Source: a plasmid
DNA: 30,947 nucleotides
Sequence record: NZ_AP026711.1
Direction: 5' to 3' (one strand)
Position numbers: made by a program. Positions 15,001-18,000 of the stretch are shown one piece after another. Numbering within the stretch: position 1 is the stretch's first letter; every line of letters starts with the position of its first letter.

Positions 15001-18000
15001 TACAATACGAAAGGCACCTACGAAGGAGCATCCCATGGACATGCTGAACACCATCCTCTCCCTGTTCACGAAGTTCGCCATCATCGGCGGCGGCTTGTGG
15101 CTCGTGTGGGGCGCGATCGTCACCGGCGGCGCGCTCAAAGACCACAACGGGCCGCAGATTCAGACCGGCGTCTGGCAGATCGTTGGCGGCGGCCTCATCA
15201 TCGCGGCGGCCGCGCTCTTCCAGCAGATCGCCCTGTAGGAGGCGTCCATCGTGGAGGACGCCATCGTCGCCATGCTCAACGCCCTGTCGGGGGCGGCGGC
15301 CGGCAACACCGATGACCTGCTGCTGAGCCCCGAGCAGTACAACAGCGCGCTCTACCAGGCGGCCATCACCATCCACAACACGGCGGTCAAGCCGATCACG
15401 GCGATCGTCCTGAGCATCATGTTCGTCATCATGCTGGCCAGCAGCTCGACCAGGGTGGAAGGCGATCGGGAACTCGGCGTGCGCATCATCGCGGCCACAA
15501 TGTTCAAGTGCGCGCTCGTCCTCGTCGTCGCTCAGAACGCGGTTCTCATCCTCAACGCGATCAACAGCATCGCCACCACGATTGCCAGTACCGCCAACAG
15601 CGTCGACGTGGGCGGTACAGCCGGGGCCGGCAGCCAGATCGGCGACGCGATGCGCGATGACATCGCCGACGCCGGCATGGTGAAACAGCTCGGGATGCTC
15701 GTCATCCTGTTGATCCCGTTCATCGTGGCCGAGGTTGGCGGCATGCTCGCAACCGTCCTCGTGTTCGTCCGGTTCCTCCAGCTGTACATGCTCAGCGCTT
15801 TCGCCTCGTTGCCGCTGGCGTTCTTCGGCCACGAGGACACCAAGCAGATCGGCGTCGGATACCTCAAACGGTATGCGACCACGGCACTCCAGGGCGTCAT
15901 GCTCATCATCGCTGTCAAGCTCTACCAGGCTCTGCTCGGCGGCTGGCTCGGGAACAGCGTGCACTACGACGGCAACACCGACATGTGGAACTTCGTCATC
16001 AGCAACTTCGGGAGCTTCCTCGTCGCGCCGGCGGTGCTCATCTTGCTGCTGTTCGGCTCGAACAGCCTGGCCAAGGCGATCGTCGGGGAGGGATAGCCCA
16101 TGGCACTGGAAATGAAGGTCTACCGCGAGGTCCGAGCCTACGAGGCCCACGTCATGTTCGGCCTGTCCTGGCGGCAGCTCGGAGCCCTGGCCGTCGGCAT
16201 TCCCCTGGCGGGGGGCGTCTTCGCCGCCATCGCCTATGCCCTGCACCAGGGCGGCGCGACGTGGGAGGAGGCGACCAACGTCGCTATGTGGGTCATCTTC
16301 CCCATCCTCATTCCCGTGGCCGCCTGGGGATGGTGGCGGCCTAAGGGTCTCAAACCCGAGAAGTTCTTCGGCTACCTCATCCGCCACTACCTCACCGGAA
16401 AGGTCATCACCTATGACGACACCTACCGTCCCACCAACACCCGGACAGCAGAAGCCCAACCCGTACCTGAACCCGGAGCACCTGCCCAGCAGGCGCGAAG
16501 CGCCCGCCGAGCAGCCCGTCGTCAAGCGCGCAAGCGGCGCACGGTGGTTCCTCGCGAGCATCTTCGGACGACACGAGAAGACCGAGCAGAAGCCCGGCGA
16601 GCAGCGCAGCCGGCGCGCCGGGCGAGTCGGCACTGACAACGCCGCCGTCACCGGCATCAAGCACGCCGCGAAGCGCACTCAGCAGCTCCTCGGCTACCAG
16701 GCCATGCTCCCCAGCGGCGTGGCCTGGCTCGGGGCCGACGAGTGGTCGCTGACGCTGCGCATCAGCGACATCAACTACCTCGCCGCCGAGCAGAGCAAGC
16801 AGGAAGCGGTCGTCGACCGGTGGGCGCGGTTCCTCAACAGCTTCGGAGCCGGCACCCGCCTGGAGATCACCGTCATCAACCGCATCCTGGACGAGGCCGA
16901 CGTCGCACAGCTCGTCCAGAAGCCGCGTGTCGGCGACGGATGGGACGAGTGGCGCGACGACTTCAACCGGATCGTGCGCGGAAAGCTCGCCTCCGCCAGC
17001 CGTAACACGGTCACCGAAAAGCTCCTCACCATCACCGTGCAGGAGCCCGACCGGGAGAAGGCCGAGGCCGCCCTGATCCGCCTCGGCCACGAGACCGCCG
17101 CGCAGCTCGCCGCCCTGGAGGAGGGATGCCGCGCCGACATCCTCGCCCGTGCCGAGCGCCTTGAAGTCCTCGCACACCTGCTGCGCCCCCACGAACTGTT
17201 CACGTTCGACGAGGCCACGTTCGAACCGAACAAGCGCCTGGCCACCGCCGATTACGTGGCCCCCTGGGCCGTGGAGACGACCGACGCGAAGGGCCCTCTC
17301 ATCCTCCACAACGGCTCGGGCGACACGTACCACACAATCTTGTGGATCCGCGACTACCCGGTGTGGCTGTCCGACCGGCTCATCTCCGAGCTGGCCGACA
17401 TCAAGTGCGACCTCAGCGTCAGCCTGCACCTGGAGCCCTACGACCAGGCCGACGGCATGAGCCTCGTCCAGCGGCAGATCGCGGAGCTCGAGATGCAGAC
17501 GATCGCCGAGCAGAAGAAGGCCCAGAAACAGGGCTACAGCGAGGACCTGATCCCCCACAAGCTCCAGGAGGCCACCACCGAGGCGAAGGACCTGCGCAGC
17601 GAACTCGAATCATCCAACCAGAAGGTGTTCAGCACCGTCATGGTCATCGGCGTGTCCGGGCAGACTCGCGAGGACCTGGATCAGAACGTCAAGCGCGCAC
17701 TGACTGTCATCCGCAAGCAGTCGTGCGTCGCGGAGGTGACCGCCTTCATGCAGCACGACGCCCTGACGACCGAGCTGCCCATCGGCGTGCGGCGCGTCCC
17801 CATGCGACGCACCCTGACCACCGCTTCGGCCGCGATCGTCGTCCCCTTCACGACGCAGGAATTGTTTGTGCCCGGCGGCAACTGGTACGGCGTCAACGCG
17901 CAAAGCTCGAACGCCGTGGTCGCCGACCGCACCAAGACCACCAACGGCAACGGCTTCATCCTCGGCACCTCCGGCTCCGGCAAGAGCGTGTTCGGGAAAA

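What the first reader, a model, noticed from the sequence alone, without database searches (positions are those of the whole stretch)
16478..16498. Exact 21-nt repeat encoding the peptide HLPSRRE in the disordered N-terminal tails of two different ATPases (VirB4-like and ParA/MinD-like)
GCACCTGCCCAGCAGGCGCGA is identical at 16478-16498 (VirB4 N-tail, ...NPEHLPSRREAPAEQ) and at 21502-21522 (ParA-like N-extension linker, ...SPIAHLPSRREVQSRH). A 21-nt perfect match between otherwise unrelated genes is not expected by chance. It could be a shared short linear motif that recruits both ATPases to a common partner. It could also be a site for a regulatory RNA, or a footprint of gene conversion.
Basis: seen in the sequence. 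Interest (0 to 1): 0.6.

Follow-up and report, generated by a model that had tools for sequence, protein, structure and literature searches.

The report
Shared heptapeptide in two conjugation ATPases
Two different ATPases of an actinobacterial conjugative plasmid carry the same seven amino acids (HLPSRRE), written with the same 21 bases, in their floppy unstructured segments; it looks like a small peptide motif kept by selection on the protein, not a DNA or RNA signal, and its partner is unknown.

Summary
The 21-mer is real, exact, same strand and same codon phase at 16478-16498 and 21502-21522. It is the longest dispersed exact repeat in the window (0 of 200 shuffles reach 21).

It encodes HLPSRRE in two segments that AlphaFold2 predicts to be disordered:
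- residues 23-29 of the N-terminal extension of a CD1110-family VirB4;
- residues 114-120 of the linker of a MinD/ParA-like accessory ATPase.

Both copies are clade-specific versions of family-wide motif islands. VirB4 tails carry MxTPT, NPYL and LP[ST]. The ParA-like linker carries [LYF]P[ST]RRE-x-R-x-SFL.

The shared ~19-mer occurs in five related plasmids or elements. The two sites change independently there (AGG/AGA/CGG in all combinations), and most changes are synonymous. So there is no ongoing gene conversion and no assembly artefact. I found no complementary copy, no Rfam hit and no conserved hairpin.

Across 11 lineages the VirB4 tail resembles its own element's ParA-like linker more than other elements' linkers (p about 0.0006 by local score). 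This is not significant by exact 4-mers, and codons differ outside this clade.

Best reading: a shared short linear docking motif under peptide-level selection. The exact nucleotide identity is either codon-preference luck (about 0.4%) or an old short-patch copy. Modest interest.

The parts
16478..16498 (+). Copy A of the 21-mer. It encodes (E)HLPSRRE, residues 23-29 of VirB4. In the overlapping prgI frame it reads APAQQAR.
21502..21522 (+). Copy B of the 21-mer. It encodes (A)HLPSRRE, residues 114-120 of the MinD/ParA-like ATPase.
16413..18974 (+). VirB4-like conjugal transfer ATPase, CD1110 family, 853 aa. The family model starts at residue 89.
   Evidence: NCBIfam NF045971 913.6 bits against a cut-off of 325. 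ATG preceded by GGAAAGG. In L004/L006/L083 an in-frame stop lies a few codons upstream of the homologous ATG.
16413..16676 (+). N-terminal extension of VirB4 (about 88 aa), predicted disordered. It has conserved islands MxTPT, NPYL (16458-16469) and xLPS.
   Evidence: AF2 pLDDT about 30 for residues 1-86. Alignment A4: N16, P17 and P25 are at least 90% conserved among 20 homologues of 59-95% identity.
16100..16636 (+). prgI (VirB3-like), 178 aa. The PrgI domain spans residues 6-104. A 74-aa basic C-terminal tail is encoded out of frame over the first 224 nt of virB4.
   Evidence: Pfam PF12666 64.2 bits against a cut-off of 27. An overlap of 176-239 nt is present in all relatives examined. pN/pS is 0.53 in the VirB4 frame, 0.65 in the PrgI frame and 1.22 in the third frame.
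21164..22444 (+). MinD/ParA-like accessory ATPase, 426 aa. N-terminal domain residues 1-78 (21164-21397). Disordered linker residues 79-133 (21398-21562). ATPase domain with deviant Walker A GKGGAGKT.
   Evidence: Pfam AAA_31 and CbiA. AF2 model: pLDDT about 90, about 30 and 70-90 for the three parts. Best structural matches are ParA, MinD and Soj. 3305 homologues found.
21533..21547 (+). R-H-S-F-L, the nearly invariant second half of the ParA-like family motif [LYF]P[ST]RRE-x-R-x-SFL.
   Evidence: A1: R124 and S126 at least 90% conserved, F127 and L128 invariant. Codon table of 61 distinct family members.

Best explanation
The repeat is the coding sequence of one heptapeptide, HLPSRRE. It sits in two intrinsically disordered segments of two ATPases of the same conjugation operon: the N-terminal extension of the CD1110-type VirB4, and the linker between the N-terminal domain and the ParA/MinD ATPase domain of a conserved accessory ATPase.

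Shown:
- Each copy is the local form of a motif island typical of its own family. VirB4 tails carry NPYL-x(3-8)-LP[ST]. ParA-like linkers carry [LYF]P[ST]RRE-x-R-x-SFL.
- The match existed in the ancestor of a small clade of plasmids/elements.
- Since then the two sites have drifted independently, mainly at synonymous positions.
- What is maintained is therefore the peptide, not a DNA or RNA signal.

Inferred:
- The peptide acts as a short linear docking motif, so that both ATPases can engage the same site in the transfer machinery.
- The most economical candidate for that site is a peptide-binding surface of a P-loop ATPase. The model is the way disordered, arginine-containing N-terminal peptides of ParB/ParG and MinE bind and stimulate ParA/MinD ATPases.
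- A shared third partner (coupling protein, PrgI) is the alternative.
- The perfect nucleotide identity is a secondary matter. Five of the six full codons are the first or second choice for their amino acid in this element. The identity is either luck given an identical peptide (about 0.4%) or the trace of one old short-patch copy seeded by the LPSR microhomology both genes already had.
For: - Exact in-phase repeat, beyond shuffles.
- Both sites lie in predicted disordered regions.
- VirB4 tail islands are conserved in homologues down to 59% identity, while the residues between them vary.
- The ParA-like motif is conserved in 61 distinct family members.
- Clade comparison. VirB4 site: HLPSRRE, HLPSRRD, HLPSRRA, NLPSRRA. 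ParA-like site: HLPSRRE, HLLSRRE, HLPGRRE. Synonymous AGG/AGA/CGG, GAG/GAA and GCG/GCA/GCT changes are unlinked between the two sites.
- EHLPTRR recurs in a 67%-identical VirB4 with other codons (L092).
- Other lineages have their own tail/linker matches with different codons: ASLPSR/ASLPTR in L096, PLP/PLP in L083, RSRREA/GSRREA in L184, NPW..FPS/NPF..LPS at equal spacing in L185.
- Own-element pairs score higher than cross-element pairs: 32.9 against 26.5, permutation p = 0.0006. Reversed-sequence control p = 0.53. The excess with shuffled linkers is 1.0 +/- 1.3 against 6.4 observed. The same p is obtained after double-centring.
- Outside the window clade, identical residues use the same codon in 18 of 57 cases, close to the roughly 0.3-0.4 per-residue chance for the motif's amino acids in this window's codon usage.
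- Only these two proteins in the window carry LP[ST]R, [ST]RRE or NP[YFW].
Against: - No binding partner is identified and no experiment exists.
- The within-element similarity test is not significant when scored by exact shared 4-mers (p = 0.065; 0.26 without the window). It rests on 11 hand-collected lineages.
- The ParA-like motif is equally conserved in SCO6880-type clusters that have no CD1110 VirB4 and no mirrored motif in any other protein.
- The VirB4 LP[ST] island persists in clusters where an FHA protein replaces the ParA-like ATPase.
- Some elements with both genes lack the motif in the ParA-like linker (L098, L177).
- The family cores overlap only partly: LP[ST] against [ST]RRE.
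- Within the clade the motif is not strictly invariant (H to N, P to L, S to G, E to D/A).
- The VirB4 copy is dual-coding with prgI, which may by itself slow change there.
Confidence: 0.45

Rival explanations
1. Coincidence of two unrelated family motifs. The VirB4 tail island (LP[ST], often followed by R) and the ParA-like island ([LYF]P[ST]RRE) serve different, protein-specific purposes. In this clade they happen to read the same over seven residues and, through shared codon preference, over 21 bases. There is no common partner.
For: - Each motif is conserved where the other protein is absent.
- The ancestral VirB4 state HLP[ST]R[RK][AV] and the ancestral ParA-like state LP[ST]RRE are each explained by descent within their own family.
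- Unrelated ParA-like genes come close to the VirB4 sequence by themselves, for example L023 CCC ACC AGG CGC GAG.
- The extension from 19 to 21 nt is a later GCA to GAA point change in VirB4.
- The finding was selected because it is an exact repeat, so there is a scan-wide selection effect.
Against: - Identical codons given an identical HLPSRR peptide have probability about 0.004.
- The rare AGR arginine codon (6% + 1.6% of Arg) is used at both sites.
- His at position -1 occurs in both families' subsets.
- There is an own-element excess similarity in other lineages.
Confidence: 0.3
2. Footprint of one old short-patch gene conversion or template switch. The two genes lie 5 kb apart and already shared about 12 nt of microhomology (CTGCCNAGCMG). 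The event left a 19-nt identical patch in the clade ancestor, with or without any functional meaning.
For: - All six codons are identical, including the rare AGG.
- The patch was already present in the common ancestor of window, L081, L084, L085 and L087.
- The ParA-like family otherwise mostly uses CGN at this arginine, while VirB4 relatives use AGR (L006 AGA, L098 AGG, L180 AGA).
Against: - There is no homology in the flanks on either side.
- There is no concerted change afterwards: AGG/AGA combinations are independent.
- Tail/linker resemblances in other lineages are encoded by different codons (18/57 same codon).
- 21 nt is below the usual length for RecA-dependent exchange (established knowledge).
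Confidence: 0.18
3. A nucleic-acid signal: an sRNA target, a protein operator (imperfect palindrome GCACCTGC-CCA-GCAGGCGC) or an RNA hairpin that regulates both genes.
For: - The 21-mer contains a 5+5 inverted repeat CCTGC/GCAGG.
- Local folds have z-scores of about -2.
Against: - No complementary copy in the window with up to 3 mismatches.
- No Rfam match.
- Predicted folds differ between the two sites.
- The AGG to AGA change in relatives breaks the inverted repeat without compensation.
- Variation is concentrated at synonymous positions of the protein frame.
- The motif is not conserved at DNA level in the wider families.
Confidence: 0.04

Closest known systems
Disordered N-terminal peptides of ParB/ParG and MinE that bind and stimulate ParA/MinD ATPases (e.g. 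PDB 3r9i MinD-MinE(12-31), 5u1g TP228 ParA-ParB, which appear among the structural neighbours)
   Same: A short, basic, arginine-containing peptide in an unstructured segment. A ParA/MinD-fold ATPase with a deviant Walker A motif is one of the two proteins involved.
   Different: Here the peptide sits in the ATPase's own linker and in a VirB4 tail, not in a ParB/MinE-type partner. No binding or ATPase stimulation has been tested. The resemblance is by analogy only (own knowledge plus fold match).
ParA/MinD-like accessory ATPases of conjugation systems: Agrobacterium VirC1, R388 StbB (own knowledge)
   Same: A ParA-family ATPase encoded with a T4SS and thought to position DNA-transfer components.
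   Different: No sequence membership was tested. The protein here has an extra about 78-aa N-terminal domain and a long linker. It belongs to an uncharacterised actinobacterial family found in two different T4SS cluster types.
VirB3-VirB4 association and VirB3-VirB4 fusions in T4SS (PMC12102498, which cites earlier work)
   Same: prgI (VirB3-like) lies immediately upstream of virB4. The segment carrying copy A is where the two genes meet.
   Different: The genes here are not fused. They overlap out of frame by 224 nt, so the same DNA encodes the PrgI C-tail and the VirB4 N-tail.
Cutibacterium multidrug-resistance plasmid pTZC1 (PMC10100872)
   Same: The gene content described for pTZC1 matches the window: tet(W), an erm gene and a T4SS operon on one transferable plasmid.
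   Different: The pTZC1 sequence (LC473083) was not in any searchable collection, so identity is untested. The closest sequenced relatives found are Propioniciclava/Brooklawnia MAG contigs.

Membership tests
VirB4-like conjugal transfer ATPase, CD1110 family | Whole-protein score above the curated cut-off of NCBIfam NF045971 | tested here: met
   913.6 bits against 325; model positions 1-751 match residues 89-848. The first 88 residues lie outside the model.
PrgI (VirB3-like) family | Pfam PF12666 above the gathering score | tested here: met
   64.2 bits against 27, residues 6-104 of the 178-aa ORF 16100-16636.
ParA/MinD (SIMIBI) ATPases | ParA/MinD-type nucleotide-binding domain (Pfam AAA_31/CbiA) and ParA/MinD fold | tested here: met
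   PF13614 34.3 bits against 27; PF01656 26.1 against 25.4. Foldseek top hits are ParA, MinD and Soj.
ParA/MinD (SIMIBI) ATPases | Deviant Walker A motif xKGGxxK[ST] with the signature lysine | tested here: met
   ANGKGGAGKT in the translation. G183-K184-G185-G186 and K189-T190 are invariant or nearly invariant in A1.
ParA partition ATPase (equivalog NF041546) / MinD (TIGR01968) | Score above the curated cut-off | tested here: not met
   26.6 bits against 180 and 16 against 212.9. It has the ParA/MinD fold but is not a canonical ParA or MinD.
Short linear motif (SLiM) | Located in an intrinsically disordered segment | tested here: met
   pLDDT about 30 for VirB4 residues 1-86 and ParA-like residues 79-133. 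This is a prediction only.
Short linear motif (SLiM) | Conserved island flanked by fast-evolving sequence | tested here: met
   VirB4: N16, P17 and P25 at least 90% conserved in an otherwise variable tail. ParA-like: [ST]RRE..R.SFL conserved while the rest of the linker varies in length and sequence.
Short linear motif (SLiM) | Binds a defined partner domain | not testable with these tools
   No multimer prediction or experiment was available.
Gene conversion / concerted evolution | The two copies change together within elements, including at synonymous sites | tested here: not met
   Arg codon pairs are AGG/AGG, AGA/AGA, AGA/AGG, AGG/AGA and AGG/CGG. Same-codon fraction in other lineages is 0.32.
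Gene conversion / concerted evolution | Identity tract embedded in flanking homology | tested here: not met
   The flanks are unrelated from the first base on both sides.
sRNA target / cis-regulatory RNA | Complementary RNA or a known RNA family; structure kept by compensatory change | tested here: not met
   No complementary copy. No Rfam hit. Folds differ between the sites and are not compensated in L081.

The most novel reading that the evidence does not exclude
The VirB4 N-terminal tail and the ParA-like linker carry an element-specific 'matching peptide' that co-evolves within each plasmid lineage: HLPSRRE here, ASLP[ST]R, PLP, SRREA, NP[WF]..[FL]PS elsewhere. This would give cognate recognition between the T4SS motor and its accessory ATPase, or a hand-off at one shared docking site. 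It would therefore be a specificity determinant among related conjugative elements that co-reside in Actinobacteria.
Probability: 0.15. Interest if true: 0.7.

Novelty: new variant of a known kind. Interest (0 to 1): 0.4.

Why it matters
Gram-positive, and especially actinobacterial, T4SS are poorly understood. The MinD/ParA-like ATPase found here has thousands of homologues but only generic source names such as 'AAA family ATPase' or 'MinD/ParA family ATP-binding protein'. Two full-text searches turned up nothing specific on it.

A seven-residue peptide shared by this ATPase and by the N-terminal extension of VirB4 gives a concrete, cheap handle. It can be mutated, used as bait, or modelled against candidate partners. 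That would show how the two ATPases are wired into the machine.

The element carries tet(W) and an erm gene. By gene content it resembles the transferable Cutibacterium resistance plasmid pTZC1, so a transfer-blocking target would have some practical value.

If the motif proves to have no function, the case is still useful as a calibrated example. It shows how far family-typical motifs plus codon bias can go towards producing an exact 21-nt repeat.

Tried and rejected
- **Assembly artefact:** rejected. Independent assemblies carry the sites.
- **Ongoing gene conversion:** rejected. Synonymous variants are unlinked.
- **DNA palindrome or RNA hairpin:** rejected. The AGG to AGA change is uncompensated and the folds differ.
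- **sRNA target or known RNA:** nothing found.
- **Family-wide preference for the rare AGR codon at this arginine in ParA-like genes:** rejected. Most use CGN.
- **The VirB4 tail is not translated and the peptide belongs only to the PrgI frame:** unlikely.
  - The ATG, the MxTPT start and the NPYL/LPS islands are conserved, also where PGAP annotates a shorter VirB4.
  - The pN/pS test did not separate the two frames: 0.53 against 0.65.
- **A third protein in the window with the motif:** none.
- **A mirrored motif in SCO6880-type clusters:** none.
- **Exact 19-mer in viral contigs:** two unrelated chance hits.
- **Position -1 co-variation (H/H, P/P, S/S):** suggestive in three lineages, contradicted or untestable in others. 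It was replaced by the permutation test.
- **Metagenome scan with VirB4:** returned mostly Bifidobacterium-type loci without the ParA-like gene.
- **Literature searches:** nothing on this motif or on the ParA-like family in these clusters.
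Full report
**1. Observation**

The pattern GCACCTGCCCAGCAGGCGCGA occurs exactly twice, both on the + strand, at 16478-16498 and 21502-21522. No other copy on either strand exists with up to 3 mismatches. The neighbouring bases differ at once on both sides.

It is the longest dispersed exact repeat in the window; the next are 18 nt. In 200 dinucleotide-preserving shuffles the longest repeat was typically 15-16 nt and never above 20. In 200 within-gene codon shuffles none reached 21.

Both copies begin at a third codon position and read H-L-P-S-R-R-E in the two protein frames.

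**2. Gene context**

Most of the window is an actinobacterial MPF-FATA-type conjugation module of 63-74% G+C:

| Coordinates | Product |
|---|---|
| 10634-12343 | relaxase |
| 12318-12935 | DUF3801 protein |
| 12946-14646 | coupling protein |
| 15251-16096 | TrbL/VirB6-like protein |
| 16100-16636 | PrgI |
| 16413-18974 | VirB4, CD1110 family (913.6 bits against a cut-off of 325) |
| 18980-20500 | SLT + NlpC/P60 hydrolase |
| 20497-21147 | 216-aa ORF, no family match (possible lipoprotein from its N-terminal sequence) |
| 21164-22444 | MinD/ParA-like ATPase |

The closest relatives are Propioniciclava/Brooklawnia MAG contigs and small metagenomic contigs. One of these is probably a 19.7-kb circular plasmid (L081/L082).

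**3. Where the two copies sit in the proteins**

*VirB4.* The family model begins at residue 89. The first 86 residues are predicted to be disordered, with pLDDT about 30. The motif is residues 23-29.

*ParA-like protein.* A confident N-terminal domain (residues 1-78, pLDDT about 90) is followed by a disordered linker (residues 79-133, pLDDT about 30). Then comes a ParA/MinD-fold ATPase with a deviant Walker A motif. The motif is residues 114-120.

**4. Is the VirB4 tail real?**

The prgI ORF has its PrgI domain in residues 6-104. It then continues for 74 codons, out of frame, across the first 224 nt of virB4. Gene callers and PGAP disagree on the two gene ends.

Evidence that the tail is translated as part of VirB4:
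- In every relative, an ATG preceded by a GAAAG(G/A) motif (a plausible ribosome-binding site) sits exactly at the end of the PrgI domain.
- In L004, L006 and L083 an in-frame stop lies a few codons upstream of that ATG.
- The peptide islands MxTPT, NPYL and LP[ST] are conserved down to about 60% identity. This holds even in the Leifsonia plasmid, where VirB4 is annotated short.

pN/pS is 0.53 in the VirB4 frame, 0.65 in the PrgI frame and 1.22 in the third frame. Both frames may therefore be constrained, and copy A is probably dual-coding.

**5. Each copy is a family-typical island**

In 20 VirB4 homologues, only M1, N16, P17 and P25 are at least 90% conserved before about residue 60. The residues after LPS vary: RREA, ARGN, GRQQ, RPAE, KAPE, ELDS and others.

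In the ParA-like family the consensus is [LYF]P[ST]RRE-x-R-x-SFL. It lies just before the invariant PATQGWRG segment. This motif is equally conserved in a different cluster type (SCO6880-type). Those clusters lack a CD1110 VirB4 and have no mirrored motif in any other protein.

Conversely, the VirB4 LP[ST] island is present in clusters where an FHA-domain protein replaces the ParA-like ATPase.

**6. History within the clade**

| Element | VirB4 site | ParA-like site |
|---|---|---|
| window | GAG CAC CTG CCC AGC AGG CGC GAA | GCG CAC CTG CCC AGC AGG CGC GAG |
| L081 | ..GAA CAC CTG CCC AGC AGA CGC GAA | CAC CTG CTC AGC AGA CGC GAG |
| L084 | ..AGA CGC GAC | ..AGG CGC GAG |
| L085 | AAC CTG CCC AGC AGG CGC GCA | ..AGA.. 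|
| L087 | ..AGG CGC GCA | CAC CTG CCC GGC CGG CGC GAA |

The about 19-nt identity is therefore ancestral to this clade. The AGG/AGA/CGG variants occur in all combinations, so there is no concerted evolution. Most changes are synonymous in the protein frame. The extension from 19 to 21 nt is a later GCA to GAA change in VirB4.

Outgroups show that VirB4 had HLP[ST]R[RK] with an AGR or CGA codon by descent: L098 CAC CTG CCG ACG AGG AAA; L092 CAC CTG CCG ACC CGA CGC; L006 AAC CTG CCG AGC AGA. The ParA-like family mostly uses CGN at this arginine.

**7. How surprising is the nucleotide identity?**

With this element's codon usage (AGG is 6% of Arg codons), two independent HLPSRR peptides would share all six codons with probability 0.0037. 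Once one accepts that the peptides are the same, the DNA identity is unusual but not extreme. An old short-patch copy seeded by the shared CTGCCNAGCMG microhomology cannot be excluded.

**8. Do tail and linker resemble each other more generally?**

Other lineages show their own resemblances:

| Element | VirB4 tail | ParA-like linker |
|---|---|---|
| L096 | ASLPSR | ASLPTR |
| L083 | APLPA | TPLPT |
| L184 | PRSRREAAE (placed before NPYL) | GSRREARAA |
| L185 | NPWL-(20)-LFPS | NPFE-(20)-PLPS |
| L004 | NPYLSRP | SPYLRPS |
| L098 | TGPQP | SGPQP |

For 11 lineages I scored the best ungapped BLOSUM62 segment between the VirB4 tail and the ParA-like linker:
- Own-element pairs average 32.9; cross-element pairs average 26.5.
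- Permutation p = 0.0006 (0.0008 without the window).
- With reversed linkers p = 0.53.
- With residue-shuffled linkers the excess is 1.0 +/- 1.3, against 6.4 observed.
- Double-centring gives the same p.
- With exact shared 4-mers the effect is weak: p = 0.065, and 0.26 without the window.

I rate this as suggestive only.

Outside the window clade, identical residues in these segments use the same codon in 18 of 57 cases. This is close to the roughly 0.3-0.4 per-residue chance for the motif's amino acids in this window's codon usage. The resemblance there is at the peptide level and not the result of recent DNA exchange.

**9. Nucleic-acid explanations**

- No complementary copy in the window.
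- No Rfam family in the window.
- The 5+5 inverted repeat CCTGC/GCAGG is broken by AGG to AGA in relatives without compensation.
- Predicted folds differ at the two sites.
- The exact 19-mer in viral contigs gave two unrelated hits.

**10. Conclusion**

What is conserved is a peptide in two disordered segments.

The best-supported reading is a short linear docking motif shared by the two ATPases (inference). The ParB/MinE-peptide to ParA/MinD paradigm is the nearest mechanistic model. A common third partner is the alternative.

The main rival is that two independent family motifs happen to coincide. It stays strong, because each motif exists without the other protein. A single old patch copy may explain the exact DNA identity. 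Regulatory-RNA and artefact readings are not supported.

No literature on this motif or on this ParA-like family in T4SS clusters was found.

Noticed in passing
window 16100-16636 / 16413-16676: prgI (VirB3-like) and virB4 overlap out of frame by 224 nt. The same DNA encodes a basic 74-aa PrgI C-tail and the VirB4 N-tail. An overlap of 176-239 nt is present in all relatives down to 67% VirB4 identity. Annotation pipelines resolve it differently. VirB4 is in the +1 frame relative to prgI, so a frameshift would give a VirB3-VirB4 fusion (speculation).
   Followed up: partly
L178:14749-15522, L091:13490-14386, L183:6205-6993; compare window 21164-21397: In related clusters the gene at the ParA-like position encodes an FHA-domain protein. 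It shares the same about 75-aa N-terminal domain (..DGSA.V.I.G......L..AR..V.......PDG..) and a disordered linker. This looks like a domain swap: N-domain + linker + (ParA ATPase or FHA). Gulosibacter pARLON1 has both genes in tandem. VirB4 tails begin with a conserved M-x-T-P-T, a possible phospho-threonine site for such FHA proteins (idea only).
   Followed up: partly
window 199-2118 and 3053-7579: tet(W) ribosomal-protection gene (1284.7 bits on the TetM/W/O/S family model; about 98% identical to plasmid-borne tet(W)) lies in a roughly 50% G+C segment. Next to it is a transposon bounded by 60-nt inverted repeats (3053-3112 / 7520-7579, 80% complementary). It carries a Mu-type transposase (3924-5354, - strand), an AAA protein and an Erm 23S rRNA methyltransferase (6589-7380). 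It is 91.7% identical to an Erm(51) transposon on a Corynebacterium marinum plasmid. Gene content matches the description of Cutibacterium plasmid pTZC1; sequence identity was not testable.
   Followed up: partly
window 25487-25526 and 26584-26623: A 40-nt sequence, 93% identical in two copies, ends in each case at the ATG of a gene: the ArdC-like antirestriction gene (start 25524) and the partition ParA (start 26621). It is probably a shared leader, ribosome-binding site or operator. Weaker copies lie at 26400 and 26566.
   Followed up: no
window 28150-28177: A perfect 28-nt palindrome, TCGGCCGCCGCGTCGACGCGGCGGCCGA, inside ORF 27546-28691. It is the longest exact self-complementary sequence in the window.
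   Followed up: no
L090 (Paraoerskovia plasmid) and most of L002-L080: The ParA-like ATPase family (3305 hits) is mostly found in a second, unrelated actinobacterial T4SS cluster type: SCO6880-family protein, 'ATP/GTP-binding protein', coupling protein, DUF4913 and M23 peptidase. It keeps the [YFL]P[ST]RRE.RQSFL motif there.
   Followed up: partly
P0097, P0103, P0106, P0111, P0115, P0117; P0030-P0033: Two subgroups of ParA-like linkers carry an NPF(A/T)(Q/P)K or SPYL(R/H) island about 15-35 residues upstream of [ST]RRE. These are reminiscent of the NPYL island of VirB4 tails.
   Followed up: no
window 16704-16718 (VirB4 residues 98-102): The conserved start of the VirB4 core, AMLPSGVAWLG, itself contains LPSG. 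Tail variants such as DLPSGV (L179), SLPSGR (L177) and ALPSGQ (L184) resemble it. This may be coincidence.
   Followed up: no
window 19695-19712 and 27722-27739: A second exact dispersed repeat of 18 nt (ACCTCGACGCCGTGACGC), with a third copy at 83% identity at 26511. It is within the range seen in shuffles.
   Followed up: no
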